In this document: piece after piece, positions 1-33,324 of the stretch
How the letters are laid out: each line of letters begins with the position of its first letter
Numbering within the stretch: the first letter of the stretch is position 1
Translations under genes and position numbers: made by a program
Assembly: GCF_004010195.1 (NCBI RefSeq)
Contig: NW_025214638.1
Span: forward strand, 13,209-47,861
Length of the DNA: 34,653 nucleotides
Source: Chiloscyllium plagiosum
Lineage: Eukaryota
Direction: 5' to 3'
Notes under the pieces: model-generated
Database searches by the model: none
Told to the model about the DNA's origin: nothing
What the model saw: only the letters and a program-made list of their open reading frames with translations

Positions 1-377
1 GTTAAAAATCACACAACACCAGGTTATAGTCCAACAGGTTTAATTCGAAGCACACTAGCTTTCGGAGTGATTGTGGTGGGCTCGGTCGTAACACAGAATT
101 TATAGCAAAAATTTGCAGTGTGATGTAACTGAAATTATACATTGAAGAATTGATTGTCTGTTAAGCCTTTCATCTGTTAGAATACAGTGATAGTTTCACA
201 TTACACTGCAAATTTTTGCTATAAATTCTGTGTTACGATCGAGCCCTCCACAATCACCTGATGAAGGAGTGTCGCTCCGAAAGCTAGTGTGCTTCCAATT
301 AAACCTGTTGGACTATAACCTGGTGTTGTGTGATTTTTAACTTTGTACACCCCAGTCCAACACCAGCATCTCCGAAT
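1..377. mobile_element. Penelope-like family B pseudo-LTR, inverted (fold-back) arrangement
   Basis: 1-~125 is the reverse complement of ~200-341. The same sequence forms the 3' end of the RT/GIY-YIG element at 30149-34450. The + arm has a 3' extension at 342-377. Confidence 0.85.
255..289 (+). ncRNA. Minimal type I hammerhead ribozyme (family B, intact core)
   Basis: cac-CTGATGA-A-GGAG tgtcg CTCC-GAAA-GC-TA-gtg: full catalytic core, stem II, and 3-bp stem I (cac/gtg). Confidence 0.8.
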
Positions 378-1007
378 TATGTTAGGATGAGATGTGATGG
401 TTTGAGAGGTAGAAGTTAGCCAGGAAAAACCTAAGTAGAGAGCTCGGGAGAGCCAAGAAGGGAAGTGAGAAGTCATTGGCAGATAGGATTAAGGAAAACC
501 CTAAAGCTTTCTATAGCTACATTAGGAATAAAAGAATGATGACAGTAAAATTAGAGCCAATCAATCATAGTAGTGGCAAGTTATGCATGGAGTCAGAGGA
601 GTTAGGGAAGCTCTAAATGAATGCTTTTTTGTAAGTAGTCACACTAGAAAAAGTCAATGTGGTCGAGGGGAATACTGAGCTACAGGCTACTAAGTTTGAA
701 GGGATTGAGGTGCATAAGGAGGAGATGTTATCTATTCTGGAAAGTGTAAAAATAGTGAAGCTGGATGGGATTTGTCCGAGGATTCTCTGGGAAACCAGGG
801 AGGAGACTGCCAAGCCTTTGGCTTTGATCTTTATGTTGTCATTGTCTACAGGAATAGTACCAGAGACTGGAGGGTAGCAAATCTTGTTCCCTTGTTCAAG
901 AAGGGAGTAGAGACAACCCTGGAAACTGTACACTTGTGAGCCTTACCTCGGTTGCGAGTAAAGTGTTGGAAAGGGTTACAAGAGATAGGATTTATAATCT
1001 AGAAAGG
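378..1007 (+). mobile_element. CR1-like LINE ORF2 fragment (degenerate)
   Basis: Translations such as DGICPRILWETREETAKPLALIF match the CR1 pre-RT region; contains stops and frameshifts. Confidence 0.85.
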
Positions 1008-1014
1008 ATGGTAT

Positions 1015-1091
1015 TGGAAAACCACAGCAGGTCAGGCAACATCCGAGGAGCAGGAAACTCGACATTTCGGGCAAAAGCCCTTCATCAGTGA
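1015..1091 (-). mobile_element. Penelope family A pseudo-LTR fragment with hammerhead motif
   Basis: Minus strand reads CTGATGA-A-GGGC tttt GCCC-GAAA-TG-TC, followed by sequence shared with 33231-33324. Confidence 0.8.
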
Positions 1092-1104
1092 TTAAAGCAT
1101 GCTG

Positions 1105-1228
1105 GGAAATATAAACGCCTGATGGACAATAATATGATGTGATTAGCCAATATAAACTTATGATGGACAATAATATGATATCATTAGGAAATATAAATTT
1201 ATGATGGACAATTGTGATGCGATTAGGC
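1105..1228. repeat. 41-bp tandem repeat, ~3 copies
   Basis: AATATAAA(C/T) recurs at 1108, 1149 and 1190, each followed by TGATGGACAAT. Confidence 0.8.
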
Positions 1229-3457: not shown

Positions 3458-3461
3458 ATAT

Positions 3462-4159
3462 AATTCACTCTTCTATTGGATATTCTAAAATGCATGACCT
3501 CGCATTTGCCCGGATTGAAATCCATCTGCTATTTCTCCATCCAACTCTCCAATCTATCTATATTCTGCTGTATTCTCTGACAGTCCCCTTCACTACCTGC
3601 TACTCCACCAATTTTAATGGCATCTACAAACTTGTTAATCAGAAACCTATACCTTCCTCCAGATCATTTATATATATCACAAACAACAGTGGTCCCAGGA
3701 GGGATCCCTGTGGAACACCACTGGTCACAATTCCTCAATTTGAGGAATTCTCTTCCACTACTGCTCTCTGTCTCCTGTTGCCCAGCCAGTTCTTTATCCA
3801 TCTAGCTACTACACCTTGGACCCCATGCGACTCAGTTTCTCTATCAGCATACTATGGCGTACCTTATCAAACACCTCACTGAAGTCCATGCATATGACAT
3901 CTACATCCCTTCCCTCATGAATCAACTTTGTCACTTCCACAAATAATTCTATTAAGTTGGTAAGTTGGTAAATCATGACATTCTGTGAACAAACCATGCT
4001 GCCCATTACTGTTAAGCCTATTTTACTCCAAATGGGAATAGATCCTATCCCTCAGTATCTTCTCCAGCTTCCCTTCAACTGACATCAGGCCTAAAGTTAC
4101 CAGGATTATCCCTGCTACCCTTCTTAACCAAGGGGACAACATTAGCCTTTCTCCAATGC
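3462..4159 (-). mobile_element. CR1-like LINE RT fragment
   Basis: Minus translations LTNLIELFVEVTK..DFSEVFDKVRH and WRKANVVPLVKKGSRDNPGNFRP. Confidence 0.85.
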
Positions 4160-4689
4160 TGTGGTTCTGTTCGCCGATCTGGAAGTTTTTGTTGCAAACG
4201 TTTCGTCCCCTGTCTAGGTGACATCCTCAGTGCTTGGGAGCCTCCTGTGAAGCGCTTTTGTGGTGTTTCCTTAGGCATTTATAGTGGCCTGTCCCTGCCA
4301 CTTCCTGTTGTCAGTTTCAGCTGTCCGCTGTAGTGGCCGGTATATTGGGTCCAGGTCTATGTGTTTGTTGATGGAGTTTGTGGATGAGTGCCATGCTTCT
4401 AGGAATTCCCTGGCTGTTCTTTGTTTCGCTTGCCCTATAATGGTAGTATTGTCCCAGTCAAATTCATGTTGCTTGTCGTCTGCGTGTGTGGCTACTAGGG
4501 ATAGCTGGTCGTGTCGTTTCGTGGCTAGTTGATGTTCATGGATGGGGATCGTTAGCTGTCTTCCTGTTTGTCCTATATAGTGTTTTGTGCAGTCCTTGCA
4601 TGGGATTTTTTTAGAGCAAAACTAATGTAGTGTACAAAATCCCATGCAAGGACTGCACAAAACACTATATAGGATAAACAGGAAGACAG
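4160..4689 (-). mobile_element. Penelope-like family C 3' fragment (GIY-YIG endonuclease + pLTR) with 5' fold-back inversion
   Basis: Minus strand reads KIPCKDCTKHYIGQTGR..HEH..REFLEAWHS..SINKH. Plus strand 4615-4689 reads NVVYKIPCKDCTKHYIG*TGR. 4556-4608 and 4635-4689 are inverted copies. Confidence 0.85.
4194..4233 (-). ncRNA. Minimal hammerhead ribozyme (family C, intact core)
   Basis: gca-CTGAGGA-T-GTCACCT agac AGGGGAC-GAAA-CG-TT-tgc. Confidence 0.8.
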
Positions 4690-4886: not shown

Positions 4887-5089
4887 AAAACAAATGGGTC
4901 TAGAGTCGTGGCAAAAAGGGTAATATTGCCAGAGCCGGTGATGTAAATTCGGAATCGGACAGGTAGCCCTCAGAGTCGAAGGGCTGAAACTCAGGGATTA
5001 ATAAAGTTGGGAGGTTTGCCTTATGTCAGGGGTTTCCTTTGGAGGGGGTTTGATCAACAGTCTTTTTGACCGACTAGGAGGATAACAGG

Positions 5090-5435: not shown

Positions 5436-5597
5436 GGTGGCTCAGTGGCTGGCGCAGCTGCCTCACAGCACCAGGGTCCTAGGTTCAATTCCAGCATTGG
5501 GTGACTGTCTGTGTGGAGTTTGCATATTCTCCCCGTGTCTGTGTGTGTCCTCCCACAGTCCAAAGATGTGCAGGTAAGGTGAATTGGCCATGTTAAA
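5436..5597 (+). mobile_element. tRNA-derived V-SINE (HE1-like), 3'-truncated
   Basis: A box TGGCTCAGTGG, B box GGTTCAATTCC, core TGTGTGGAGTTTGCA..TCTCCCCGTGTCTG. Confidence 0.85.
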
Positions 5598-7952: not shown

Positions 7953-8277
7953 GTAGATTTAGATTAGATTAGATTACATTACAGTTTGGAAACAGGCCCT
8001 TCGGCCCAACAAGTCCACACCGACCCGCCGAAGCGAAACCCACCCATACCCCTACATTTACCCCTAACCTAACACTACGGGCAATTTAGCATGGCCCATT
8101 CACCTGACCTGCACATCTTTGGACTGTGGGAGGAAACCGGAGCACCCGGAGGAAACCCACGCAGACACGGGGAGAATGTGCAAACTCCACACAGACAGTC
8201 ACCTGAGGCGGGAATTGAACCCGGGTCTCAGGCGCTGTGAGGCAGCAGTGCTAACCACTGTGCCACCGTGCCGCCCC
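7953..8277 (-). mobile_element. Full-length V-SINE (HE1-like)
   Basis: GGCGGCACGGTGGCACAGTGG head, GGTTCAATTCC B box, V core, (TCTAA)n tail. Confidence 0.9.
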
Positions 8278-8410
8278 AATCCACAACCACCTGATGCAGG
8301 AGCAGTGCTCCGAAACCTAGTGATTCCAATTAAGCCTGTTGGACTATAACTTGGCGTTGTGTGATTTTTAACTTTGTACACCCCAATCCAACACTGGCAT
8401 CTCCAAATCT
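8278..8410 (+). mobile_element. Penelope family B pLTR end with degenerate hammerhead
   Basis: Matches 248-377; core mutated to CTGATGC...GAAACCTA. Confidence 0.85.
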
Positions 8411-9230: not shown

Positions 9231-10927
9231 TAGAATACAGAACATGAACATAGAAAAGTACAGCACAGAACAGGCCTTTGGCCCACGATGTTGTGCCGAA
9301 GTTTAATCCTAATGTAAAATATAATAACTTAATCTACACACCCCTCAACTCACTGCTATCAATGTGCATGTCCAGCAGTAGCTTAAATGTCCCTAATGAC
9401 TCTGCTTCCATCACCCCGCTGGCAATGCATTCCAAGTATTCATAACTCTCTGCGTAAAGAACCTAGCTCTGATGTCCCCTCCATACCTTTCTCCTAATAT
9501 GACCCCTCGTGCCAGTCAAACCTGCCCTGGGGAAAAGTCTCTGGCTATTGACTCTATCCATGCCTCTCATTACCTTGTATACCTCGATCAGGTCTTCTCT
9601 CTTCCTCCTTCTCTCCAGAGAGAACAGTCTGAGCTTATTCAAACTTTACTCATAAGGCAAGCCCTCCAGTCCAGGCAGCATCCTGGTAAACCTTCTTTGC
9701 ACCCTCTCCAAAGCCACTGCATCTTTCCTGTAGTCGGGCAACCAGAACTGGACACAATATTCCAAGTGTGGTCTCACCAGGGACTTGTAGAGCTGTAGCA
9801 AAACCTCGCAGCTCTTAAACTCAATCCAGCTGTTAATGATAGCCAAAACACTACATGCTTTCTTAACAACCCTATCCACTTGGGTTGTAACTTTGAGGGA
9901 TTTATGTACACCCAGATCCCTCTGTTCCTTCACACTGCCAAGAATCCTGTCTTTAATCCTATATTCAGCATTCGAGTTCGATCTTCCAAAATGCATCACT
10001 TTGTATTTATCCAGGTTGAACTCTAATTGCCATTTCTCAGCCCAGCTCTGTATCCTGACTATGTCACACTGCAGCCTGCAATAGCCCTCGATATTGTCAA
10101 CGGCACCTCCAACCTTTGTGTCGTCAGGAAATTTACTTACTCGCCCCTCAACCTCCTCCTCCAAGTCATTTATAAAACCTACAAAGAGCAGAGGCCCAAG
10201 AACAGAGCCCTGTGGGACACCACTCAACACTGACCTTCAGGCAGAATACTTTCCATCTACAACCGTTCTCTGCCTTCTGTCAACCAACCAATTCTGAATC
10301 TAAATAGCCACATCTCATTGCATCCCATACTTCCTGACTTTATGAATGAACCTACCATGGGGAACTTTTTCAAATGCCTTGCTGAAGTCCATATACACCA
10401 CATCCACTGCTCGACCTTCGTCAACCTGTCTTGTCACCTCCTCAAAGAACTCGATAAGATTTGTGAGGCATGATCTGCCCCTCAAAAAGCCATGCTCTTT
10501 GTCTTTAATCATGCTATGCTTTGCCAAATAGTCATAAATCCTATCCCTCAGAATTATTTCCAAAACTTTGCTGACCACAGATGTAAGACTGACTGATCTG
10601 TAATTGCCAGGGATTTCTCTATTACCCTTCTGAAAAGAGGGACAACATTCGTCTCCTTCCAATTTTCCAGTATGACTCCCGTGGAGAGTGAGGAGGCAAA
10701 AATCTTCATCAGTGGCTTAGCAACTTCCTTTCTTGCTTGACAGAGCAGCCTAGGATAAATCTGGTCTGGTCCTGGAGACTTATCAATCTTAATGTTTTCC
10801 AAAATTTCCAGCACATCAACATCATCAATCCTGATCTGGTCAAGCCTGTACCTCAGCTCCTCAAAGTTCTCATTCACAACAAGGTCCCTTTCCTCAGTGA
10901 AAACCAGAGCAAAATAAATACTCATTT
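9231..10927 (-). mobile_element. CR1-like LINE 3' portion (RT to 3' end)
   Basis: SGVPQGSVLGPLLF, SKFPDDTK, LVRPHLEYCVQFW; tail repeats near 9231-9255. Confidence 0.92.
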
Positions 10928-10949: not shown

Positions 10950-11660
10950 TATACACGCACATGAATCCATGTAAGACTCTATTAACTCATTTTTAAGATT
11001 AGAATCAGTCTAAATATTATGGCACAGACAGCAACACACAGGAGCTAATACCTTTACCTTATTACCTGAGGTGACGCCAGTTGTTAAAGTTGATCAAGGA
11101 ATATAGGCACGGTGGCAGAGTGGTTAGCACTACTACCTCACAGCAATAAAAACACGGGTTCAATTCCCACCTCAGGCCACTGACTGTGTGGAGTTTGCAC
11201 GTTCTCCCCGTGTCTGCGTGCATTCCTTTGGGGTGCTCCGGTTTCCTCCCACAGTCCCAAAATGTGCAGGTTATGAAAGTTAGCCATGTTAAATTGCCCG
11301 TAGTGTTAGGGGCAGGGATAAATCTACGGGAATAAGTCGGCGTGGTTTGTGCGTTCGTGTGGACTTGTTGGGCCTAAGGGCCTGCGTCCACACTCTAAAT
11401 AAACTAAAAAAATATTTTGTGATTTACATATGAAAGAAGTGGAACTAACATGGCCATTTTAACAGATGAGTTACTTAACAAACAATAAAGGTATTTTTCA
11501 ATGTATAATTTCAGTTACATAACAGTGTAAACATTTGCTATAAATTCTGTGTCTTACAATTGTGTACTCCACAACCATCTGATGAAGGAGTGGCGTTCCG
11601 AAAGCTGGTGCTTCCAATTAAACCTGTTGAACTATAACCTGGTGTCGTGTGATTTTTAAC
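10950..11660 (+). mobile_element. Penelope family B 3' UTR/pLTR (hammerhead 11576-11610 with non-cleavable UG), interrupted by a SINE
   Basis: Collinear with 26420-27057; ends GATTTTTAAC. Confidence 0.85.
11106..11405 (+). mobile_element. V-SINE (HE1-like)
   Basis: GGCACGGTGGCAGAGTGG, GGTTCAATTCC, V core. Confidence 0.9.
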
Positions 11661-13305
11661 TTTTTTTCAAGGGTTGTAAGGTTGATGTGAACAAAACCTT
11701 CTAGTGCACAAACATTGACTTATCCAAAAACACAGATATTAACAATAGCATCTTAACTTTTGTTATACAATCACCAGGAAGCAAATGTGCATTCAAACCA
11801 GACCACAAATTTAACCTGTCCACAAGCTTCAGGGAATCAGCACTGAGTCAGTTTCTGTCTCTCTCTCGCTCTCTTACACACTCAGTTTCCTTTGAACACT
11901 TGTAGTTTGTAGTTATTAACATGAGCAGTATAACCTGCACTGAAATATAAATAGCTGTCTGAATTTACCCTGTATATTGTACTTATTGACATGAACAGGA
12001 TACCCTGCACTAAACAGGAAATAGCTCTCTGAGTTTATCCAGTTGTTTGTACTTATTGACAGAGTACTGTACCCTGCACTGTCCTGTAAAAACTGGAAAT
12101 AGCTGTCTGGGTTAACCCTGTAGTTTGTAGTTATTGACTTGATCAGTATAACCTGTACTAAAGTGGAAAAAGCTGTCTGAGTTAACCCTGTAGTTTGTAG
12201 TTATTAACATAGGCACTATAACCTGTACTGAACATTAAATAGCATTCTCAGTTTAAGCTGTAATTTATTGTTATTGACATGAGCAGTATATCCTGCACTG
12301 AAGTATAAATAGGTGCATGAATTTGCCTTGTAGTTTGGAGGTATTGACTTGATCTGTATAACTCACACCAAAGTGGAAAAAGCTGTCTGAGTTAACCCTG
12401 TAGTTTGTAGTTATTGACATGATCAGTATAACCTACATTGATCTGTAACTAGCTGTCTGATTTTATCCTGTAGTTTGTAGTTATTGACATGTGCAGTATA
12501 TCCTGCATTGAAATATAAATACCTGTCACATTTACGCTGTAGTGGGTATTTATTGACAAGAGCAGTATATCCTGCACTGAACTGTAAATAGCCCAAATGA
12601 GGTAAACCTATAGTCTGTAATTAATAACATGAGTAGTATATCTTGCACTGAGTCTACTTTGTAGCTTGTAGTTATTAAAATAAATGGTATACCCTGTTCT
12701 GAACTGTAAATAGCTGCCTGATTTACCTTTAATCTGTAGGTATTGACATGAGCAGTCTACTTTGCACTGAATTGCAAATATCTGAGTTTACCTTGTTGTT
12801 TTGTAGTTATTGACATGAGCAGCATACCCTGCACTGAATTGCAAATATCTTTCTCAGTTTACCCAGTACTTTGTAGTTCTTGACATGAGCTGTATAACCT
12901 GTGATGAACTGTAAATAGCTGTCTATTTCACCCTACAGTTTGACAAGTACAGTATACCCTGCACTGAATTGCAAATACCTCTGTGAGGTTATCCTGTGGT
13001 TTATAGTTATTGCCATGAACAGTTTAACCTGCACATAATTGTAAGCAGATGTCTGAGTTTACACTGTAATTATTAGTTATTGACATGAGAGTTTACCTTG
13101 CACTGAACAGTCAGTAGCTTTCTAAGTTTATCCTGCAGTTTGTAGGTATTGTCATGAGCAGGATACCCTGCACTGAACTGTAAATAGCTCTCTGAGGTTA
13201 CTCTGCAGTTTGCAGTTATTGACATGAGCAGTATATCCTGTACTGAACTGTAAATAGCTATCTGAGTTTAACCTGTAGTTTGTAGTTATTGTCATGAGTA
13301 GAATA

Positions 13306-13587
13306 GCTGAAAATGTGTTGCTGGAAAAGCACAGCAGATCAGGCAGCATCCAGGGAACAGGCGAATCGACGTTTCGGGCATAAGCCCTTCTTCAGGAATG
13401 AGGAAAGTTTGTCCAGCAGGCTAGTCCCTCCTCCCTACCTTTTATCTTAGCCTGCTGGACAAACTTTCCTCATTCCTGAAGAAGGGCTTATGCCCGAAAC
13501 GTCGATTCCCCTGTTCCCTGGATGCTGCCTGACCTGCTGCGCTTTTCCAGCAACACATTTTCAGCATCTGCAGACCTCACTTTCTCC
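13306..13587. mobile_element. Non-coding Penelope family A inverted pLTR mini-element with two intact hammerheads
   Basis: Arms 13306-13423 and 13448-13565; hammerheads at 13364-13399 (-) and 13472-13507 (+); 14-bp TSD TCATGAGTAGAATA (13292-13305, 13588-13601). Confidence 0.9.
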
Positions 13588-15757
13588 TCATGAGTAGAAT
13601 AACCAGGACTGAACTGTAAATAGCTTTCTGAGATTACCCTGTAGTTTGTAGTTATTGACATGATCAGTATAACCTGCACTGAATGGTAAATCAATTTCTG
13701 GGTTTACCCTGCAGTTTGTAATTATTGACATGAACAGTCTACCCTGCACTGAACAGTGATAGCTTGCTGTGTTTACCTTGTAGTTTGTAGTTATTGGTAC
13801 AAGCAGTATAACCCACATTGAACTGTAAATACCTGTAACGTTTACCTTGCAGTTTGTTGTATTTGACATGATCAGTATACTCTGCACTGAAGTGTAAATA
13901 GCTGTCTGAGATTTAGTTGTAGTTTGTAGATATTGACATTAGCAGGATGCACTGCATAGTCCTGTAAATAGCTGTTTGGGTGTCCCTGTAGATTGTAATT
14001 ATTGCCATGAGCAGTACAACCTGCACTGAATTGCAAATAACTGACTGAGATTACCCGGTAGTTTGTAATTATTGACATAAGCAGTATAACCAGCATTGAA
14101 CTGTAAATATCTGTCAGGTTCACCCCACAGTTTGTAGTATTTGATCAGTATAGTCTGCCCTGAAGCGTAAATATCTGTTTGAGTTTTACTTGTAGTTTTT
14201 AGATATTAACATGAGTAGAATACAATGCACTGAACTGTAAATAGATGTCTGGGATAATCCTGTAATTTGTAGTTATTGACGTAAGCAGTTTAACCTGCAC
14301 TGAGCTGCAAATAGATGTCCGGGTTTACCCTGTAGTTTGTAGTTATTGACATGAGCAGTCTACACTGCACTGAACTGTAAATATCTGTCTGTGTTTACCT
14401 TGTAATTTGTAGTTATTGACATCAGCAGTATTCCTTGAACTGAACGGTGAATATCTTTCTGAGTTTACCCAGTACTTTATAGTTATTGACATGAGGACTT
14501 TCACCAGCACTGAATTGTAAATAGCTGTCTGAATTTACCCTGTAGTTTGTAGTTATTGACGTGAGCAATATAAACTGCGCTGAACTGTAACTATAACTGT
14601 AGATTACCCTGTACTTTGTAGTTATTGACATTACCCTGCACTGAACTGTAAATACCTCACTGAGGTAACTGTGAAGTTTGTAGTTATGGACATGAGCAGT
14701 TTAACCTGTTCTTAAATGTAAATAGATATCTGAGTTTACTATGTAATTGTTAGTTATTGACATGAGCAGTATATCCTGCACTGAACTGTAAATAGCTATC
14801 TGAGTTTACCGTGTAATTGTTGTTATTAACAAGAGCAGTGTAAACTTGCAGTGAACTGTAACTGGCTTTCTGTGTTTACCCTGTAGATTGTAGTTATTGA
14901 CATGAGCAGTATAACCTGCATTGAACTATAATTAGCTTTCTCAGTACACGCTGTAATTTGTAGCTATTGTCATGAGCAGAATAACCAACACTGAAATGTA
15001 AATAGCTTTCTGAGATTACCCTGTAGTTTGAAATTATTGACATGAGCAGTATATCCTGCACTGAACTGTAAATCACTGTCTGTGTTTATCCTGTCATTTG
15101 TCGTTATTATGATGAGCAGTATAACCTGCACTGAAGTGTAAATAGCTCTCTGAGTCTACCCTGTAGTTTGTCATTATTAACATGAACAGTATACCCTGCA
15201 CTGAAATGTAAATAGCTCTCTGAGTTTACCCTGTAGTTTGTCATTATTAACATGAACAGTATACCCTGCACTAAACGGAAAATAGCTGTCCGGGTTTACT
15301 CGCTTGTAGTTATTGACATGATCAGTATACCTGCACTGAAGAGTAATTGGCTGACCTTTGCTTGCCGTTTGTAGTTATTGACATGAGCAGTATACCGTGT
15401 ACTGAACTGTAAATAGCAGTCTGAGTTTACCCTGTAATTTGTAGTTATTGACATGAGCAGTAGAACCCACACTGAACTTTTAGTAACTGACTGAGAATTC
15501 TCTGTGATTTGTAGTTATTAGCATGAGCAGTATAACCTGCACTCAACTGTAAATAGCTCTCTGGATTTAGCCTGTAGTTTGTCATTATTTACATGAACAG
15601 CATGCCCTGCACTGAACTGAAAATATCTGTCTGAATTTACCCAGTAGTTTGCAGTTATTGACATGAGCAGTATACCTTGCACTGAGGAATAAATAGCTTT
15701 CTATGTTTAACCTGAAGTTTGTAGTTATTGACGTGAACATGCACTGAACTCCAAATA

Positions 15758-16482
15758 AAGAAGAACAAATAACAAAGAAAATTTAAGGCCCAGGAACAGG
15801 CCCCTCAGCCCTCCAAGCCTGAGCCAATCCAAATCTACTATCTAAACCTATCGCCCAATTCCTAAGCATCTGTATCCCTCTGATCCCCACCTACTCTGCA
15901 TCTGTCCAGTTGCATCTTAAGTGAATTTACCATGCCTTCCTCTACTACCTCTGCTTGCATCGCGGTTCAGGCTCATATCGCCCTCTGTGTAAAGTACTTG
16001 CCGCGTGTATCCCCCCTAAACTTATCACCTCTCACCTTGAAAGCGTGAATCCTTCAACCTGGGAAAATGCTTATCTCTATATACCCTGTCTATACCCTTC
16101 ATGATTTTGTAGGCCTCAATCAGGACCCCCTCAATCTCCTTTCTTCTAAAGAAAACAAACCTAACCAACTCAACCTCTCTTCATATCTAACACCTTTAAC
16201 ACCAGGCAACATCCTTGTAAACTTCCTCTTCACCCTCTCCAATGTGTCCACATCCTTATGGTAATGTGGCGACCAGAACTGTACACAGTATTCTAAATGT
16301 GGTTGAATCAATATTGTGTATAATTTTAACATGACCTACCAGCTCTTTCACTCAATACCCTGTCAGATGAAGGGGAGCATACCATATGCCTTCCTGACCA
16401 CCCTATCCACCTCTGTAGCAAACAATGGACCTGAACTCCCAGATCTCTCTGCTCATCAACTTTTCCCAAGTCTCTTCTATTT
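15758..16482 (-). mobile_element. CR1-like LINE 3' fragment inserted in the satellite
   Basis: LYTILIQPHLEYCVQFWSPHY..ERVKRKFTRMLPG; 3' UTR toward 15760. Confidence 0.9.
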
Positions 16483-19292: not shown

Positions 19293-20445
19293 GCTGAAAA
19301 TGTGTTGCTGGAAAAGCGCAGCAGGTCAGGCAGCATCCAGGGAACAGGAGAATCGACGTTTCGGGCATAAGCCCTTCTTCAGGAATGAGGAAAGTTTGTC
19401 CAGCAGGCTAAGATAAAAGGTAGGGAGGAGGGACTTGGGGGAGGGGCGTCGGAAATGTGATAGGTGGAAAGAGGTCAAGGTGAGGGTGATAGGTCAGACG
19501 GGGGTGGGGGCGGAGAGGTCGGGAAGAAGATTGCAGGTTAGGAAGGCGGTGCTGAGTTCGATGGATTTGACTGANNNNNNNNNNNNNNNNNNNNNNNNNN
19601 NNNNNNNNNNNNNNNNNNNNNNNNNNNNNNNNNNNNNNNNNNNNNNNNNNNNNNNNNNNNNNNNNNNNNNNNNNNNNNNNNNNNNNNNNNNNNNNNNNNN
19701 NNNNNNNNNNNNNNNNNNNNNNNNNNNNNNNNNNNNNNNNNNNNNNNNNNNNNNNNNNNNNNNNNNNNNNNNNNNNNNNNNNNNNNNNNNNNNNNNNNNN
19801 NNNGCAGGGGAAGGTGCGGGGAGTGGAGGTTGGGTTGGTGGGGGGTGTGGATCTGACGAGGGAGTCACGGAGGGAGTGGTCTTTACGGAATGCTGATAGG
19901 GGAGGGGAGGGAAATATATCCTTGGTGGTGGGGTCCGTTTGGAGGTGGCGGAAATGACGGCGGATGATGCGCTGTACATGGAGATTGGTGGGGTGGTAGG
20001 TGTGGACCAGTGGGGTTCTGTCCTGGTGGCGGTTGGAGGGGCGGGGCTCAAGGGCGGAGGAGCGGGAAGTGGAAACGGTGGAGGGCATCGTCGACACGTC
20101 GGGGGGAAATTGCGGTCCTTGAAGAAGGAGGCCATCTGGGTTGTACGTTTTTGGAACTGGTCCTCCTGGGAGCAGATGCAGCGGAGTCGAAGGAATTGGG
20201 AGAATGGGATGGCGTTTTTACAGGGGGCAGGGTGGGAGGAGGTGTAGTCCAGGTAGCTGTGGGAGTCGGTCGGTTTGTAGTAGATGTCCGTGTTGATTCG
20301 GTCGTCTGAGATAGAAATAGAAAGATCGAGGAAGGAGAGGGAGGAATCTGAGACTGTCCAAGTGAATTTGAGGTCGGGGTGGAAGGTGTTGGTGAAGTGG
20401 ATGAACTGTTCAACCTCCTCATGTGAGCACGAGGCGGCGCCGTAT
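19293..20445 (-). mobile_element. Penelope family A, 5'-truncated (RT thumb to pLTR; N-gap 19575-19803)
   Basis: FLDLSI..TDIYYKPTDSHSYLDYTSSHP..KNAIPFSQFLRLR.ICS; intact hammerhead at 19351-19386; flanking ATGAGCAGT duplication. Confidence 0.9.
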
Positions 20446-23400
20446 ATGAGCAGCATATGAGCAGTATATGCTACATTGAACTGTAAATAGCTGTCTGAGT
20501 TTACCCTGTATTTTGTTGTCATTGACATGTGCAGTATATACTGCACTAAACTGCAAATAGCTGTCAGTGTTTACTCTGTAGTTTATCATTATTGACATGC
20601 GCTGTGTACCCTCCCCAAACTGTAAATAACTCTCAGATTTTACTCTATAGTTCGTAGTTATAATCATGAGCGGTACTGCACTGAACTATAAGTAGCTATC
20701 TGAGTTTACCTTGTAGTTTGTAGTCATTGACATCAATCATATAGTGAACTGTAAATATTTGTCTGAGTTTACTCTGTAGTATGTACTTGCTAACATGAGC
20801 AGTGTATCCTGCATTGAACTCTAACTAGCTGTCTGAGTTTACCTTGTAGTTTGTAGTCATTGTTATGAGCAGTACGAGCACCGAACTCTAAATAGCTGTT
20901 TGAGTTTACCCTGTAGTTTGTAACTATTGACTTGAGCAGTATTACCTGCACTGAAATATAAATAGCTGTCTGAATTTACCCTGTAGTTTCTAGTTATTGA
21001 CATGAGCAGTATATGCTGCACTGAACTGTAAATTTCTGTCTGACTCATAGAGTCATAGAGTTATACAGCACGGAAACAGACCCTTCGGTCCAATTCGTCC
21101 ATACCAACCAGATATCCCAACCCAATCTAGTCCCACGCCCAACAGCTGGCCCATATCCCTCGAAACCCTTCCTCTTCATATACCCATCCAAATGTCTTTT
21201 AATTGTTCCAATTGTACTCACCTCCACCAGTTCCTCTAGCAGCCCATTCCACACATGCACCACTCTCTGCATTAAAGTTTTTCCCCTTAGGACTCTTATA
21301 TCTTTCCCCTCTCACTCCTCCACAAGCCCAGGGAAAACACCTTGTCCATTTATCCTATCCATACTTCTCATGATTTTATAAACCTCGATAAGGTCACCCC
21401 TCAGCCAACGACACTCCAGGGAAAGCAGTCCTAACCTATTCAACCTCTTCCTATAGCTCATGTCCTTCAAACCTGGCAACTTCCTTGTAAATCTTTTCTG
21501 AACCCTTTCAAGTTTCACAACATCCTTCCAATAGGAAGGAGACCAGAATTGCACGCAATATTCCAAAATGACTGAACCAATGTTCTGTGTGGCTGCAACA
21601 TGATCTCCCAACTTCTGTAGTCAATACTCTGACCAACAGAGGAAAGCAAGCCAAACACCTTCTTCACTATTCTATCTATCTGCGACTCTACTTTCAAGGA
21701 GCTATGAAAATGCACTCCAAGCTCCCTCTGTTCAGCAACACTCCCTAGGATCTTACCATTAAGTATATACGTCCTGCTCTGATTTGCTTTCCCAAAATGC
21801 AACACCTCCCATATTACTAATTTAAACTCCATCTGCTACTCCTCAGTCCATTGACTCATCTGATCAAGATCCCATTGTAATGCAAGGTAACCTTCTTCGT
21901 TATCACTATGCCTCCAATTTTAGTGTCATCAGCAAACTTACTAACTATACCTCATCAGTTCACATCCAAATACTTTGTACAAATGACGAAGAGGAGTGGA
22001 CCCAGCACCAACCCTTGTGGCACTCCATTGGTCACTGGCCTCCAATCTGAAAAACAACCCTCCACCGTCACTGCCTGTCTTCTACCTTTGAGCCAGTTCT
22101 GTATCCAAGTGGTGAGTTCTCCCTGTATTCCGTGAGATCTAACCTTACTTACCAGTCTCCCATGGGCATTTTTGTTGAACGCTTTACTGAAGTCCATATA
22201 GATCACGTGTACCACTCTGCCCTCATCAATCCTCTTTGTAACTTCTTCAAAAAGCTCAATCAAATTTGTGAGGCATGATTTCCCACGCACAAAGCCATGT
22301 TGATTATCCCTAATCAGTCCATGCCTTTCCAAATACATGTACATCCTCTCCCTCAGGATTCCCTCCAACAACTTACCCACCACCAAAGTCAGGCTCACTG
22401 GTCTACAGTTCCTTGGCTTCTCCTTACCACATTTCTTAAATAGTGGCACCACGTTTTCCAGCCTCCAGTCTTCCGGCACCTCACCTGTGACTATCGATGA
22501 TACAAATATCTCAGCAAAGGGCCCAGCAATCACTTCCTTCGCTTTCCACAGAATTATAGGATACACGTGATCAGGTTCTGGGGATTTATCCCCTTTTATG
22601 CGTTTCAAGACACCCATCACTTCCTCCTCTGTAATATGGACATTTTTCAAGATGTCACCATCTGTTTCCCTACATTCTATATCTTACACGTCCTTTTCCA
22701 AAGTAAGTACTAATGCAAAGTACTCATTTAGTATTTCTCTCATTTTCTGCAGCTCCACACAAAGGCCACTTTGCTGATCTTTGAAGGTCCCTATTCTCTC
22801 CCTTGTTACCTTTTTGTCCTTAATGTATTTGTAAAGTGCTCCCCAATGACACCTCAGTCACCTGCCCTGCCTTATTTCCCAAGAGGTCAGGTTTTACACC
22901 TTCTCTATTAGGTTCATCCACAAACTGAATCAGAAAATTTTCAAATACGCACTTAAACTCGTCTCCTTTTAAACCCTCAATGCTATGGCAGTCTCAATCA
23001 ATGTTTGGAAAGCTAAAATCCCCTTCCATAACCACACTCATCTGACTATTAGGGGATCTATAATGCAATCCCAATAAGGTGATATTCCCTTTCTTATTTC
23101 TCAGTTCCACCCAAATAACTTCCCTGGATTATTTTCAGGAATATCCTCCCTCAGTACAGCTGTAATGCTACCCTTGTCAAAAACGCCACTCCCCCTCCTC
23201 TCTTGCTTCCCTTTCTGTCCTTCCTGCAATATTTGTATCCTGGAGCAATACTCTGCCAGTCCTGTCCACTACTGAACCATGTTTCTGTAATTGCTGTGAA
23301 GTCACAGTCCCATTTTCCTAACCGTGCCCTGAGTTCATCTGCCTTCCCTGTTAGGCCTCTTGCATTGAAATAAATGGAGTTTAATTTATCAGACCTGCCT

Positions 23401-23848
23401 CGTTCTCTGCTTTGTCCGTGCCTGCCCTGACTGTTTGACTCACTTCTTTTCTCACCTGTACCAGTCTCAGATTGATTTCTTCCCTCAATATCTCCCTGGG
23501 TCCCACCCCCCCTCCATTTTACTAGTTTAAATCCTCGCGAGCAGTTATAGTAAATCTCCCTGCCAGTATATTAGTTCCCTTACAATTTAGGTGCAATGTG
23601 ACCTTCTTGTACTTGTCATTTCTAAGCCAAAACAGATTCCAATGATCCAAAGCTGTGAATCCTTTTCCAATGCACCAGCTCCTCAGCCATGCATTCATCT
23701 GCTCTGTACCCCACATGTACCCCACAGTGCATTAGAGCCCGTATCAATACCAGAAACTTGGCTGTTTGTACTACGTTCCCCTGAGAATCCTTCACCCCCT
23801 ATATTTTCCAAAACAGCATACTTGTTTGAAATGGGGATAGTTATAGAA

Positions 23849-23968
23849 GAGGAGAAAGTGAGGACTGCACATGCTGGAGACCAGAGTCGAATTCCTGAAG
23901 AAGGGCTTATGCCCAAAACGTCGATTCTCCTGCTCCTTGGATGCTGCCTGACCTGCTGTGGTTTTCCA
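23849..23968 (+). mobile_element. Penelope family A mini-insertion (inverted tail + hammerhead with GAAA to AAAA change)
   Basis: GAGGAGAAAGTGAGG... inverted tail joined to CTGAAGAAGGGCTTATGCCCAAAACGTC; imperfect TSD ATAG(TT/CC)ATAGAA. Confidence 0.8.
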
Positions 23969-24643: not shown

Positions 24644-24773
24644 ATTCCTGATGAAGGGCTTTTGCCCGAAATGTCAATTTCGCTGCTCCTTGGATGCTGC
24701 CTGAACTGCTGTGCTCTTCCAGCACCACTAATCCAGAATCTGGTTTCCAGCATCTGCAGTCATTGTTTTTACC
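24644..24773 (+). mobile_element. 130-bp hammerhead-only Penelope (A' subfamily) insertion
   Basis: Starts 4 nt before CTGATGA; perfect 15-bp TSD GGGTTTCTTTCTCTG (24629-24643, 24774-24788). Confidence 0.9.
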
Positions 24774-25021
24774 GGGTTTCTTTCTCTGTCTCTCCTGCAC
24801 TGATCTCACCATGTGCTGCTTTTGTCTGGTCCTCTCCCTTTTAATAGTGCCGTTATTTTAACATTGTTTTTGCTCCAATTTTCCAAAACAATGCAACAGC
24901 ATATAAAACAATAATTGCTGCCCCTGGAATTTGAGAAAATCACCTCCAACACCAAGAAAGGAGCAGCCTGTTACAGCCAGAAATTGTTCCTATCCTCTAT
25001 CTTGGATTACCAGAATCCTTC

Positions 25022-25112: not shown

Positions 25113-26327
25113 TTCATAACAGATAAACTCCTCCACTTTGTCTCAATAAAGCTGAGAGTTCGTTCACACTCAGTTCTGCTGCCAAGTCTGCTCCAGCCTG
25201 GAAAGTCGTGTCAACCGCATTGAATCAGACAATGCTTAGTGTCAATCCAGGATGGGAGCGAAACTACACTCCCTCAGCTCTGACTCCATCCTCTCCCTTA
25301 AACTAATTCAGCAGGTGGATTGAAACCTAAATTGTAGTTCTAGTATAGAGGAGATTGAGAGTAGAGAGGTCCAACATAAGGTTTCAGGGTCATAAGAGGC
25401 ACCAGCAAGCAAAATATTGTGTGAAGTCTGTGAATCCAGAAGAAGATGGGTGAACTTGCAAGCATGGGTTGGTACCTGGGATTTAGATGCTGTGGCCATT
25501 TCGGAGACATGAGTAGAGCAGGGAAATGAATGATTGTTGCCGATTTCATGATTTAGATGTTTCAGTAAGAACAGAGAAGATTATAAAAGGTAGGGGTGGT
25601 GTGGCACTGCTAGTCAAGGACAGTATTAGGGCTGCAGATGGACGTTTGAGGACTCATCAACTGAGGTAGTATGAGATGAGATTAGAAACAGGAAAGGAGA
25701 GATCACTCTGTTGGGAGTTTTCTATAAGCCTGCGAATAGTTCCAGAGATTTTGAGAAAAGGATAACAAACATTACTCTTGATAGGAGCGAGTGTGACAGT
25801 GTAGGTGTTATGGGGGACTTCAACTTCCCTAATATTGACTGGGAAGACTATAGTTCAAGTACTTTAGATGGGTCAGTTTTTGTCCATTGTGTGAAGAAGG
25901 GATTTCTGATGCAGTACGTAGAGAGGTCAACAAGGGATGAGGCCACATTAGATTTGATACTGGGTCATGAACATGGCCAGGTGTTAGATTTGGTGGTAGG
26001 TGAGCATATTGGTAATAGTGAAAACAATTCAGTTATATTTACTTTAGAGATGGAGAGGGATGGGTACATACTGGAGGGCAAGAGCTATAGCTGGGGGGAA
26101 GCAACAATGACATGATTCAGAAAGACTTAGGATGCATAGGATGGGGAAGGAAAGTGCAAGGGATGGGCACAATGGAAATATGCAGCTTATTCAAGAAACA
26201 AATAATGCATGCACTTGGTAAGTATGTACCTGTCAGACAGGGAGGAAGTTGACGAGCACAGGAGCCATGGTTTACTCAGAAAGTTTAACCTCATGACAAG
26301 AGGAAGAAGAAGGCTTATGTTAGGATA

Positions 26328-27057
26328 TGTGTGGTGAATTTGTACTTGCAGAGTTACATTGCACTTTGCTCAAAAACTGCATACATTCATGTAGAACTCT
26401 GAGCTCAAAAACTGCATGAATTTATGTAAAACTCTGTTATCTCACTTTTTAGATTAGAATCAATCTAAACATCAGGTCATAGACAGAGAACACAGGGGGC
26501 TAACACCTTCAACATATTCTGGATCAGTGGTGCTGAAAGAGCACAGCAATCCAGGCAGCATCCGACGAGCAGCAAAATCGATGTTTCAGGCAAAAGCCCT
26601 TCATCAGGAATAAAGCTTTATTCCTGATGAAGGGCTTTTGCCCGAAACGTCGATTTTGCTGCTCGTCGGATGCTGCCTGAATTGCTGTGCTCTTCCAGCA
26701 CCACTGATCCAGAATCTGGTTTCCAGCATCTGCAGTCATTGTTTTTACCTTCAACATATTGTCTAGCTATCACCATTGTTAAAGCTAACCCGAGAATGCA
26801 ACTTTTAAAAAAAGGGTTTCGTGATTTACACATGAAAGAAGTGAAACTATCACTGTACTCTAACAGATGAAAGGCTTAACAGACAATCAATTTTTCAATG
26901 TATAATTTCAGTTACATCACACTGCAAATTTTTGCTATAAGTTCTGTGTTACAATCGAGCCCTCCACAATCACCTGATGAAGGATCGTCGCTCCAAAAGC
27001 TAGTGTGCTTCCAATTAAACCTGTTGGACAATAACCTGGTATTGTGTCATTTTTAAC
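26328..27057 (+). mobile_element. Penelope family B 3' UTR/pLTR insertion
   Basis: Perfect 12-bp TSD TATGTTAGGATA (26316-26327, 27058-27069); degenerate hammerhead at 26971-27005. Confidence 0.9.
26519..26746. mobile_element. Palindromic double-hammerhead A' mini-element nested in family B
   Basis: Spacer-less inverted repeat 26517-26714 centred on AAAGCTTT; 14-bp TSD ACCTTCAACATATT (26505-26518, 26747-26760); intact + hammerhead at 26620-26655. Confidence 0.9.
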
Positions 27058-27219
27058 TATGTTAGGATAAGATGTGAAGGCTCAGTTAGGGCAGGTGAAG
27101 AGTTATAAGTTAGCCAGGAAAGACCTAAAGACAGAGCTAAGACAAGCGAGGAAGGGACATGAGAATTTGTTGGTGGATAGGATCAAGGATAATCCTAAAG
27201 ATTACTACAGGTACATCGG

Positions 27220-30148: not shown

Positions 30149-30614
30149 GTTAAAAATCACACAACACCAGGTCATAGTCCAACAGGTTTAATTGGAAGCA
30201 CGCTAGCTTTCGGAGTGTCACTCCTTCATTAGGTGATAGTGGAGGGCTCAATCCTAACACGCAGAATTTATAGCAAAAATTTACAGTGTGATGTAACTGA
30301 AATTATACATTGAAATATTGATTGTCTGTTAAGTCTTTCGTCTGTTTGAATTCAATGATAGTTTCACTTCTTTCATGTGTAAATCACAAAACCTTTTTTT
30401 AAAAGGTTGCATTCTCAGGTTAGCTGTTAACAATGGTGATAGCCAGACAATATGTTGAAGGTGTCAGCCCCCTGTGTTCTCTGTCTATGCCATGATGTTT
30501 AGATTGATACTAATCTAAAAAGTGAGATAACGGAGTTTTACATGAATTCATGCAGTTTTTGAGCAAAGTACAATGTAACCCTGCAAGTACAAATTCACCC
30601 CACAAAATATATAT

Positions 30615-30815
30615 GCGTATGTGGGTCTTTGTCTGTCTGTGAATGTGTGTATCTGTCTGGTTGGTGAGTGTGAGAAAGTGTTTGTGTAATGAATATAGAG
30701 TGTCTTAATTCTGTGAGGTGGTGCATGTGTGAGTGTGCATGCCTGTAAGGGTGTGTGAGTATCTGTGTGTGTGTGTGAGTGCTTGTGTGTAGGAGTGTCT
30801 GTGTGTGTGTATAGT
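30615..30815. repeat. Degenerate (GT)n low-complexity tract in family B 3' UTR
   Basis: Interrupted TG dinucleotide runs. Confidence 0.8.
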
Positions 30816-31155
30816 GTAATGGTGGTCACCTGTAATGTGACATGAAACCAAGGTCCCGGTTGAGGCCCTCCCTATGGGTACCAAAATTAGCTATCAGCCT
30901 CTGCTCGGCCACTTTTCACTGCTGCCTGTCCCGAAGTCCGCCTTGGACGGTGGTCACCCAAAGGGCCGAGGTTGAATGTCATGGACCACTGAAGTGTTCC
31001 CCAACTGGGAGGGAACACTCCTGTCTGTTGATTGATGTGCAGTGCCCATTCATCCGTTGTTGTACCCTTTATTCAGTTTCCCCAATGTACCATGCCTCAG
31101 GGCATCCTTGCCTGCAACATATAAGATAGACAACATTGGCTGAGTCACATGAGTA

Positions 31156-33324
31156 GCTTCGAGGAGAAAGTGAGGTTTCTCCATCACCTCACCACGCCCA
31201 ACGTCACCCCCACGCCAATCTCGGTCCTAACCCCCACGCCCAACCCCGCCCACACTCCCAGCTCCAGCCCCACACCAGGTCCTAGCTCCCAGCCCCTGCC
31301 GTGTTTTCACCAACCCTCCAGAACTACCCCTCTCTGAGGATGAAAGATCAGTCCTCAGCAGAGGCCTCACCTTCATTCCCCTACGGTCTGGGATTAACGA
31401 GTTCAACATGCGGCGTGACATCGAACAATTCTTCCGCCGCCTTCGCCTCCTTCTTCAACCAAGACTCTCGCCCACCCTCTGACGACCCCTTCTCCCACCT
31501 CCAACACACCCCATCCACCTGGACACCCTGTGCTGGCCTCTTACCTGCCCTCAATCTCTTCATAGCCAACTGCCGCCGCAACATTAACCGCCTCAACTTC
31601 TCCACCCCTCTCACCCACTCCAACCTCTCACCCTCGGAACGTGCAGCCCTCCACTCTCTCCGTACCAACCCCAAACTCACTATCAAACCGGCAGACAAGG
31701 GAGGCGCGGTAGTAGTTTGGCGCACCGACCTTTACACCGCTGAGGCTAAATGCCAGTTCGCGGACACCTCCTCCTACTGCCCCCTTGACCTTGACCTTGA
31801 CCCCACCTCCCACCACCAAACCATCATCTCCCAGACCGTCCATAACCTCATCACCTCAGGGGATCTCCTATCCACCGCCTCCAACCTCATAGTCCCACAG
31901 CCCCACACCACCCATTTCTACCTCCTGCCCAAAATCCACAAACCTGACAGCCCCGGCAGANNNNNNNNNNNNNNNNNNNNNNNNNNNNNNNNNNNNNNNN
32001 NNNNNNNNNNNNNNNNNNNNNNNNNNNNNNNNNNNNNNNNNNNNNNNNNNNNNNNNNNNNNNNNNNNNNNNNNNNNNNNNNNNNNNNNNNNNNNNNNNNN
32101 NNNNNNNNNNNNNNNNNNNNNNNNNNNNNNNNNNNNNNNNNNNNNNNNNNNNNNNNNNNNNNNNNNNNNNNNNNNNNNNNNNNNNNNNNNNNNNNNNNNN
32201 NNNNNNNNNNNNNNNNNNNNNNNNNNNNNNNNNNNNNNNNNNNNNNNNNNNNNNNNNNNNNNNNNNNNNNNNNNNNNNNNNNNNNNNNNNNNNNNNNNNN
32301 NNNNNNNNNNNNNNNNNNNNNNNNNNNNNNNNNNNNNNNNNNNNNNNNNNNNNNNNNNNNNNNNNNNNNNNNNNNNNNNNNNNNNNNNNNNNNNNNNNNN
32401 NNNNNNNNNNNNNNNNNNNNNNNNNNNNNNNNNNNNNNNNNNNNNNNNNNNNNNNNNNNNNNNNNNNNNNNNNNNNNNNNNNNNNNNNNNNNNNNNNNNN
32501 NNNNNNNNNNNNNNNNNNNNNNNNNNNNNNNNNNNNNNNNNNNNNNNNNNNNNNNNNNNNNNNNNNNNNNNNNNNNNNNNNNNNNNNNNNNNNNNNNNNN
32601 NNNNNNNNNNNNNNNNNNNNNNNNGCAAGAAATGCAAAACTTGCGCCCACATCTCCCCCCTTACCTCCCTCCAAGGCCCCAAGGGATCCTTCCATATCCG
32701 CCACAAATTCACCTGCACCTCCACACACATCATTTATTGCATCCGCTGCACCCGATGTGGCCTCCTCTATATTGGGGAGACAGGCCACCTACTTGCGGAA
32801 CATTTCAGAGAACACCTCTGGGACACCTGGACCAACCAACCCAACCATCCCGTGGCTCAACACTTCAACTCCCCCTCCCACTCCACCAAGGACATGCAGG
32901 TCTTTGGACTCCATCATCGCCAGACCATAGCAACATGACGGTTGGAGGAAGAATGTCTCATATTCTGCCTCGGAACCCTCCAACCACAAGGGACGAGCTC
33001 AGATTTCTCCAGTTTCCTCATTTCCCCTCCCCCCACCTTGTCTCAGTCAAATCCCTCAAACTCAGCACCGCCTTCCTAACCTGCAATCTTCTTCCTGACC
33101 TCTCCGTCCCCACCCCACTGTGGCCTATCACCCTCACTTTGACCTCCTTCCACCTACCGCATTTCCAATGCCCCTCCCCCAAGTCCCTCCTCCCTATCTT
33201 TTATCTTAGCCTGCTGGACACACTTTCCTCATTCCTGAAGAAGGGCTTATGTCGGAAACGTCGATTCTCCTGTTCCTAGGATGCTGCCTGACCTGCTGCG
33301 CTTTTCCAGCAACACATTTTCAGC
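31156..33324 (+). mobile_element. Penelope-like family A nested in family B (N-gap 31961-32624)
   Basis: IKPADKGGAVVV, FYLLPKIHK, CKTC, IIYCIRC..LYIGETG; pLTR hammerhead at 33231-33266; 11-bp TSD TCACATGAGTA (31145-31155, 33325-33335). Confidence 0.92.

What the first reader, a model, noticed from the sequence alone, without database searches (positions are those of the whole stretch)
255..33266. About 16 minimal hammerhead ribozyme motifs from three Penelope families, with a covarying palindromic loop III
Seen: the motif CTGANGA-N-stemII-GAAA-NN-TH occurs in three sequence-unrelated pLTRs. A/A' have GGGC-N4-GCCC and GAAACGTC, B has GGAG-N5-CTCC and GAAAGCTA, C has a 7-bp stem and GAAACGTT. 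In every copy attached to an ORF it is sense to and downstream of that ORF. Intact cores: 255-289(+), 4194-4233(-), 13364-13399(-), 13472-13507(+), 19351-19386(-), 26620-26655(+). Stem III is reduced to ACGT or AGCT, palindromic in each family. Known: Penelope-like elements carry minimal type I hammerheads that cleave as dimers through such palindromes. Inference: these shark-like families use self-cleavage to process their RNA, and these particular variants may be uncharacterised.
Basis: partly seen in the sequence, partly recalled or inferred. Interest (0 to 1): 0.7.

Follow-up and report, generated by a model that had tools for sequence, protein, structure and literature searches.

The report
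Shark Penelope hammerheads: capped, cut, polyadenylated
The motifs are real tiny hammerhead-ribozyme motifs in the end repeats of Penelope-type jumping genes, a known kind; the copies' ends suggest the element's messenger RNA likely starts just before the ribozyme, is usually copied uncut, and is sometimes cut in living cells, because U6 RNA copies are joined exactly at the predicted cut.

Summary
Observation confirmed: 16 homologous motifs, 6 intact (shuffles: mean 0.04). They lie in pLTRs of two Neptune-like families (A, B) and one Poseidon-like family (C) of a shark. Minimal PLE hammerheads with palindromic helix III are published (2014), so the ribozymes are new members of a known kind; this genome holds about 2x10^5 intact motifs. 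The genome also records how the RNA is handled. Copy 5' ends pile up at the ribozyme's 5' edge (A 139 of 255, B 39 of 68), not at the cut (8 and 2), and an extra G precedes an initiator-like A (58 and 66 of 100): likely a copied cap on uncut RNA. RNA reads show poly(A) added 29-32 nt past B's cut. U6 copies join at the exact predicted scissile bond at 8 loci, indirect evidence of cleavage in vivo. So the ribozyme likely sits in an LTR-like repeated end between cap and poly(A). C shows none of these footprints. No cleavage was assayed. This scan noted the cap, poly(A) and U6 footprints before on other DNA of this and other genomes; my literature searches did not find them in print.

The parts
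1..199 (-). Family B pLTR, inverted arm; hammerhead core deleted (18 nt)
198..373 (+). Family B pLTR, sense arm of an inverted unit
220..225 (+). TATAAA, 30 nt before the inferred start at 250
   Evidence: sequence; TATAAA in 17 of 20 B copies covering the site
250..250 (+). Inferred transcription start of B (A, 37 nt before the cut); extra G before it in truncated copies
   Evidence: inference
255..289 (+). Intact B minimal hammerhead; C3 at 258, predicted cut 286/287
298..303 (+). ATTAAA polyadenylation signal; poly(A) sites map to 315 and 318 by homology
1015..1092 (-). A' pLTR stub, loop III decayed (ATGT)
4150..4670 (-). Family C (Poseidon-like) 3' fragment: GIY-YIG region, TATAAA, pLTR
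4194..4233 (-). Intact C minimal hammerhead; C3 at 4230
8280..8409 (+). B pLTR stub, core broken
11405..11663 (+). B 3' fragment, H17 is G, broken
13306..13588 (.). Head-to-head A unit in the 70-bp satellite, 13-bp target duplication; intact cores 13364-13399(-) and 13472-13507(+); initiator-like TCATTCC at 13470-13476
19293..20457 (-). 5'-truncated A element (RT part, N gap, pLTR) with intact core 19351-19386
23863..23968 (+). A stub starting at -32 with an inverted tail piece in front; G12 mutated
24644..24775 (+). A' stub starting at -32, preceded by a G not in the template; loop III decayed
26513..26750 (.). Head-to-head A' unit; intact core 26620-26655(+), decayed core 26576-26611(-)
26747..27058 (+). 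B 3' fragment, G12 mutated
30149..31155 (-). B element, 3' part (GIY-YIG region, 3' UTR, pLTR; G5 mutated at the core, C3 at 30232)
31156..33324 (+). 5'-truncated A element nested in the B endonuclease region, 11-bp target duplication; RT/zinc-finger/GIY-YIG remnants; helix II broken (C3 at 33235)
33325..34627 (-). B element, RT part (RVT_1, E 2e-7), 5'-truncated against telomeric repeats at the contig end

Best explanation
These are minimal type I hammerhead motifs in the pseudo-LTRs of endonuclease-bearing Penelope-like retrotransposons, and in families A and B the ribozyme likely lies in a short repeated end of the messenger RNA: a capped transcript likely starts 32 (A) or 37 (B) nt before the predicted cut and, in B, RNAs are polyadenylated about 30 nt after it. 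Steps: (1, inferred) Pol II starts at an initiator at the ribozyme's 5' edge. (2, inferred from Anolis PAc and from the two 3' end classes seen here, about +60 and +95) the element's RT primes inside the 5' pLTR and usually runs off the capped, uncut 5' end, adding one G and often folding back, which makes the 90-130 bp stubs and head-to-head pairs that fill this window. (3, inferred) a full-length cap-to-poly(A) RNA carries two ribozyme copies, which can pair through the ACGU or AGCU palindrome, probably with protein help, and cut at low efficiency. (4, indirect record) cutting happens in the germ line, since U6 is joined at nucleotide 1.1. Cutting at both ends would strip cap and poly(A) and leave a unit-length RNA with ligatable ends (not shown). 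Most inserted copies are inert.
For: Intact motifs 6 vs 0.04 by chance; 80 in 1.32 Mb of evenly spaced genome samples vs 0-1 in shuffles. Three Watson-Crick pair types at each of helix I pairs 1-3 across 13 representatives; G10.1-C11.1 kept in 11 of 13, G.U in 2. Loop III palindromic in 90 of 129 relaxed hits; 27 of the other 39 are CpG-decay forms. In A the motif is non-coding: ATG at +134/+135 in 4 of 4 loci examined. 5' ends at -45..-15: A 139 of 255, B 39 of 68; within 3 nt of the cut: 8 and 2. Longer arm of inverted A pairs ends at -34..-27 in 27 of 35. G before A-32: 58 of the first 100 of 8,721 matches vs 19 and 24 of 100 at neighbouring positions; 15 of 20 such G not explained by an inverted arm. 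G before A-37 in B: 66 vs 18 of 100, p 6e-12. Initiator consensus YYANWYY at -34..-28 in 66 of 84 A copies; TATAAA in 17 of 20 and AATAAA/ATTAAA in 54 of 67 B copies. 442 + 537 RNA reads with poly(A) at +29/+32; 0 of 70 genomic B tails are A-rich there. U6 joined at nt 1.1 in 7 of 7 A-pattern matches (6 loci) and 1 of 1 B match with a 0-60 nt gap allowed, plus L351.
Against: No cleavage assay; no 5'-end RNA data. RNA reads show no pile-up of starts or ends at the cut in A or B, though poly(A) single-cell libraries would lose such products. In A the G:A ratio at -33 vs -34 is not significant (p 0.14), and base tallies rest on the first 100 matches, all on one chromosome. The core is no more conserved than the +17..+48 flank within A (0.95 vs 0.92) or B (0.94 vs 0.91). 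Family C shows scattered 5' ends and no U6 junction. No poly(A) among the six listed loose ends for A. The poly(A) reads come from one run of an unnamed organism and may derive from few host genes ending in B copies. Two of 20 dispersed U6 copies join an A-type ORF internally, so 5'-OH ends also arise otherwise. The modelled dimer (-13 to -15 kcal/mol for A, B) is far above the dimer minimum (-23 to -29). In Anolis PAc the ribozyme was not needed for insertion in vitro (PMC11167929).
Confidence: 0.7

Rival explanations
1. One reading: the ribozyme is the routine processing step that defines the template RNA, so inserted copies derive from cut (or cut and re-ligated) RNA.
For: U6 junctions show cutting occurs. 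Long copies run ORF, intact ribozyme, then +55 or +94 in B, beyond the poly(A) site, which a re-ligated circle would explain. Model proposed in PMC4209133.
Against: Only 8 of 255 (A) and 2 of 68 (B) 5' ends lie near the cut, and several of those are helix I fold-backs or alignment breaks; stubs start at the cap-like site with the ribozyme whole. Long copies are also explained by read-through of tandems or by a strand jump between the two repeated ends.
Confidence: 0.15
2. The fold is kept as a protein-binding, promoter or RT-pausing element; the 5' pile-up is RT stalling plus fold-back at the ribozyme's helices, and catalysis is incidental.
For: 82 of 216 A ends are in inverted pairs, with junctions inside the helices; the downstream flank is as conserved as the core; catalytic mutants of PAc insert normally in vitro (PMC11167929).
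Against: Stalling would be expected on the 3' side of a structure, not just after it; it does not explain the position-specific G in two families, the initiator and TATA spacing, or U6 junctions at the exact bond. The catalytic core is the only part shared by A, B and C.
Confidence: 0.12
3. The short copies are a separate non-autonomous SINE or retrozyme family.
For: Most copies are 90-130 bp and lack ORF sequence; tandem retrozymes derived from pLTRs are reported in vertebrates, including one cartilaginous fish (10.64898/2026.07.22.740005).
Against: The stubs are the same sequence as the pLTRs of ORF-bearing copies and continue into the ORF 5' region in tandems; they are dispersed, not tandem monomers; lengths form a continuum.
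Confidence: 0.03

Closest known systems
[quoted passage not shown]
   Same: Type I, no true helix III, palindromic 15.2-16.2, extra base after A9, G10.1-C11.1, thousands of dispersed truncated copies, opposite-strand pairs, found in Neptune and Poseidon elements.
   Different: No shark in its Table S1; about 2x10^5 intact motifs here against about 4,000 and 9,000 reported for coelacanth and Xenopus (other descriptor); the parts read report no cap, start site, poly(A) site or in vivo cut.
Poseidon element PAc of Anolis (Frangieh et al. 2024, PMC11167929; parts 1-2 of 4 read)
   Same: Internal RT starts downstream of the hammerhead that explain two 3' end classes and the tail; ribozyme not needed for insertion; no RNA ends at the cut in RNA-seq.
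   Different: In PAc the ORF starts inside the ribozyme; in family A the ATG is at +135. PAc work gives no cap site, poly(A) site or genomic record of cutting.
Drosophila virilis Penelope promoter (Schostak et al. 2008, PMC2377424; passages read)
   Same: Transcription starts within the pLTR, upstream of the hammerhead.
   Different: TATA-less with DPE and an intron between start and ribozyme; here B has a TATA box and the inferred start abuts the ribozyme with no intron.
U6/LINE-1 chimeras made by RtcB ligation (Moldovan et al. 2019, PMC6789731; abstract and introduction read)
   Same: U6 3' end joined to a retroelement RNA that needs a 5'-OH, then reverse transcribed.
   Different: Here the partner is a PLE and the junction is the predicted ribozyme cut.
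Retroviral and LTR U3-R-U5 ends and minus-strand strong-stop DNA (recalled, no call)
   Same: Works like it in layout: TATA, start, repeated segment, poly(A) site, downstream priming site; short run-off cDNA.
   Different: No tRNA primer site, integrase or true LTR; priming is target-primed by a GIY-YIG nick. Not a member.

Membership tests
Minimal type I hammerhead (PLE min-HHR) | Core CUGANGA ... GAAA ... UH | tested here: met
   6 intact in window, 80 in 1.32 Mb
Minimal type I hammerhead (PLE min-HHR) | Helices I and II with compensatory changes; G10.1-C11.1; extra base after A9 | tested here: met
Minimal type I hammerhead (PLE min-HHR) | Palindromic helix III remnant | tested here: met
   90 of 129, most others CpG decay
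Minimal type I hammerhead (PLE min-HHR) | Self-cleavage after H17 as a dimer | not testable with these tools
   indirect only: U6 junctions at nt 1.1 for A and B
Rfam hammerhead families | Match to a curated covariance model | tested here: not met
   no hammerhead family at E up to 10; the models expect a full helix III
EN+ Penelope-like elements | RT followed by C-terminal GIY-YIG endonuclease | tested here: met
   B RT RVT_1 E 2e-7; A GIY-YIG E 0.005, below the Pfam cut-off; relative P0040 has both; YIGET/YIGQT motifs in A, B, C
EN+ Penelope-like elements | pLTR on both sides in tandems, inverted 5'-truncated partner, 30-40 bp tail on one end | tested here: met
Neptune/Nematis clade (A, B) | CX2-5CxxC zinc finger in the RT-EN linker | tested here: met
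   B in window translation; A read in a related locus DNA and partly in window, where N gaps cut the motif; criterion from 10.1101/2021.04.23.441226
Neptune/Nematis clade (A, B) | Placement in an RT tree with named reference elements | not tested
   no reference set on hand; A and B RT parts 41% identical over 78 aa
Penelope/Poseidon clade (C) | No linker zinc finger before the GIY-YIG motif | tested here: met
   L077 and L310 translations; no tree made
Non-LTR retrozymes | Tandem monomers each with a hammerhead, no ORF link | tested here: not met
   no tandem array of the motif in the window; ORF-linked

The most novel reading that the evidence does not exclude
The pLTR of these Neptune-type elements is a ribozyme-containing R region: cap just before and poly(A) just after the hammerhead give every full-length RNA exactly two copies, whose dimer cleavage strips cap and tail and yields a unit-length ligatable RNA, while uncut RNA gives strong-stop stubs; the genome keeps fossils of all three states (cap G, U6 ligated at the cut, poly(A) site), the first in vivo record of cutting by a metazoan minimal PLE hammerhead.
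Probability: 0.35. Interest if true: 0.75.

Novelty: new member of a known kind. Interest (0 to 1): 0.52.

Why it matters
What PLE hammerheads do, whether they cut in cells, and where PLE RNAs begin and end are open questions (PMC4209133, PMC11167929, 10.1101/2021.04.23.441226). The footprints here name exact positions to test: a start site at the ribozyme's edge, a poly(A) site 30 nt past the cut, and U6 ligation at the scissile bond. The motifs themselves are ordinary; their number also means about one intact motif per 17 kb of this genome, many transcribed passively inside host RNAs, with B copies able to end host transcripts.

Tried and rejected
Rfam scan: only spurious miRNA hairpin hits. 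Single-strand folding of the cores: weak z-scores (-0.35 to -2.5), only helix II stable, uninformative. MAFFT put family B one column out of register, so pairs were read by script from 13 chosen representatives instead and no shuffle control for covariation was run. First 5'-end mapping over-extended and lacked long B references; one search gave false peaks at +1/+2 and -12 from subfamily differences, seen by eye; replaced by profile mapping. A CATGAG target preference, suggested by three window insertions, held in 2 of 49 random copies: rejected. A cap-derived G in long copies (strand-jump signature): 2 of 103 A and 0 of 37 B, no support. Run X22 laid no reads, no test; no listed holder was on record as RNA. 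One search used a wrong frame and was redone. Lunse et al. 2016 (PMC5785218) was not held; I know it only by title and through a review (PMC6765202, passages). Species and assembly were not pursued beyond 'shark'.
Full report
Observation. Homology scans give 16 copies: nine A/A', six B (one lacking 18 nt of the core) and one C. A strict descriptor returns exactly the six named cores; 100 dinucleotide shuffles of the window gave 0.04 hits on average. The other ten carry core, helix II or CpG changes. Rfam finds no hammerhead at E up to 10. Positions below are counted from the predicted cut: -1 is H17, +1 is nucleotide 1.1.

Carriers. A, B and C are 5'-truncated Penelope-like elements. B's RT scores RVT_1 at E 2e-7 and A's endonuclease GIY-YIG at E 0.005, below the cut-off. 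A and B have the cysteine linker of the Neptune/Nematis type; C has none and reads like Poseidon (criterion from passages of 10.1101/2021.04.23.441226; no tree was made). A and B RT parts are 41% identical over 78 aa, while their pLTRs give no cross-hits. The named relatives of B's RT are shark proteins, 82-86% identical at best. In tandem copies elsewhere the A ribozyme also lies upstream of the ORF, and the ATG is at +134/+135 in the 4 loci examined, so the motif is non-coding in A. In the window one A copy is nested in the B endonuclease region with an 11-bp duplication, and three insertions are head-to-head pairs; a read-through RNA of these pairs is predicted to bury the ribozyme in a long hairpin.

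Selection on the fold. In 138 evenly spaced 10-kb samples (1.32 Mb without N) the descriptor finds 80 intact motifs against 0-1 in five shuffles: 60 per Mb (bootstrap 46-75), or about 160,000-270,000 if the samples are typical. With the palindrome not required, loop III is ACGT in 73 and AGCT in 17 of 129 hits; 27 of the other 39 are the CpG-decay forms ACAT and ATGT. Across 13 hand-picked subfamily representatives helix I pair 1 is C-G, U-A or A-U, pair 2 U-A, A-U or C-G, pair 3 U-A, G-C or C-G (U.U in A3 and A'), and helix II changes in pairs as well (no shuffle control). Within A the core is more uniform (0.95) than loop II (0.75), N7 (0.52) and the upstream flank (0.61), but not clearly more than the +17..+48 flank (0.92); B is similar (0.94, 0.76 upstream, 0.91 downstream).

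Where copies begin. Profile mapping of the random samples (ends next to N or a sample edge, or not covering the tail, dropped; the two arms of a pair both counted) puts 139 of 255 A ends and 39 of 68 B ends at -45..-15, and 8 and 2 within 3 nt of the cut; several of the latter are fold-backs on helix I or alignment breaks. In inverted A pairs the longer arm stops at -34..-27 in 27 of 35. The A peak is the A of TCATTCC, an initiator match (YYANWYY, recalled consensus) in 66 of 84 copies covering it; B has TATAAA in 17 of 20 copies, 30-32 nt before the A at -37. Whole-genome exact counts for the A3 core: 8,640 with a non-template base at -32, 8,721 at -33, 3,937 at -34, 22,503 with the template C at -33. 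Among the first 100 listed (all chromosome C1; my hand tally) the base at -33 is G 58, A 30, T 12, against G 19 at -32 and G 24 at -34 (p 2e-8 and 2e-6). The G:A ratio alone at -33 vs -34 is not significant (p 0.14), because perfect palindromes add A. Flanks of the first 20 G copies show 15 not explained by an inverted arm. In B the base at -38 is G in 66 of 100 (3,563 matches) against 18 of 100 at -39 (2,958 matches), p 6e-12; G:A 66:9 vs 18:19, p 1e-5. Untemplated G at 5' ends is read as a copied cap for LINE-1 and SVA (PMC4859970, passages). I infer capped, uncut templates. Family C does not show this: 5' ends in 29 best-scoring loci are scattered, five at -57..-66.

RNA. Raw reads of run X21 (poly(A) single-cell, coded organism) laid on an A copy show a fourfold depth step and the top 5' loose end at -32, both strands, 92% of reads running on into other sequence, and little ORF coverage: mainly passive transcription of stubs. 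On a B copy, 442 and 537 reads carry poly(A) after +29 and +32, on the sense strand, behind ATTAAA/AATAAA at about +10..+17 and before a GU-rich stretch. None of 70 genomic B tails is A-rich there, and the hexamer is one of the two canonical forms in 54 of 67 copies. Depth does not fall at the cut, so these RNAs are uncut; cut products would be lost in such a library. The number of source loci is unknown.

Evidence for cutting. This lead came from earlier notes of the scan and was tested here. Of 20 dispersed U6 copies taken from 48 scored, two join A' exactly at G+1 and two join the A-type ORF internally. Genome-wide patterns that allowed a 0-60 nt gap between the U6 end and the PLE tail gave 7 matches for the A group (6 loci, one shared with the sample), all joined at +1, one for B, joined at +1, and none for C: 8 loci in all, none at the cap site where ordinary copies peak. 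RtcB joins U6's cyclic phosphate to a 5'-OH (PMC6789731, abstract), the end a hammerhead leaves. This is indirect but position-exact.

Mechanism. Shown by sequence: motif, covariation, location, end distributions, extra G, poly(A) site in B, U6 junctions. Inferred: start at the ribozyme's edge; internal RT priming as in PAc (PMC11167929) with run-off at the cap, giving stubs and fold-backs; low-efficiency, probably protein-assisted dimer cleavage. In B, start before and poly(A) after the ribozyme give a full-length RNA two copies of it, as the dimer needs. Long B copies extend to +55 or +94, past the poly(A) site, so they need a read-through tandem, a re-ligated circle or a strand jump; I could not tell these apart.

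Known and new. Minimal PLE hammerheads, their palindrome, dimer need and low activity are published (PMC4209133; review PMC6765202, passages). Its Table S1 lists no shark; a 2026 preprint includes one cartilaginous fish for tandem retrozymes and does not mention promoters, caps or polyadenylation in its main text (supplements closed). Searches for Penelope with shark, pLTR truncation, polyadenylation, capped start or untemplated bases (listings only) showed no paper that by title or abstract reports these footprints; most subscription papers and Lunse et al. 2016 were not visible. The scan's own notes report the cap, poly(A) and U6 footprints several times in this and other genomes; these are not independent support. 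Verdict: real, a new member of a known kind; the interest lies in the testable map of RNA ends, not in the motif.

Noticed in passing
window 34628-34653: The 5'-truncated B element ends directly in (TTAGGG)n at the contig end, in the orientation of a true telomere; a healed end or an interstitial repeat.
   Followed up: partly
window 1-373; L040, L042-L045, L050, L051, L056, L059, L060: The inverted B unit has the same junction (-164/-91) at ten other selected loci with different right flanks; L044 and L056 also share the 18-nt core deletion, so the composite may have spread as a unit or the junction is a hot spot.
   Followed up: partly
window 11901-21043: A 70-bp satellite of about 100 diverged units, interrupted by two A insertions at the same register of the unit.
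   Followed up: partly
L185, L202, L126, L095 (random samples): Older A-related subfamilies with 5-bp helix II and TCAGTT or TCAGTC at the inferred start, also initiator-like.
   Followed up: partly
L355, L356, L359, L364, L367-L370; window 8207-8279 and 5436-5495: 8 of 20 dispersed U6 copies are joined to the 5' end of a SINE-like repeat that also occurs in the window.
   Followed up: no
L095:5042-5140 and related A1 copies: Subfamily A1 has a perfect 4-bp helix I and an AATAAA at about +49; best candidate for an in vitro test.
   Followed up: no
window 9646-10925(-), 21312-23570(-), 25675-26115(+): Decayed LINE fragments with RVT_1 and AP-endonuclease hits.
   Followed up: no
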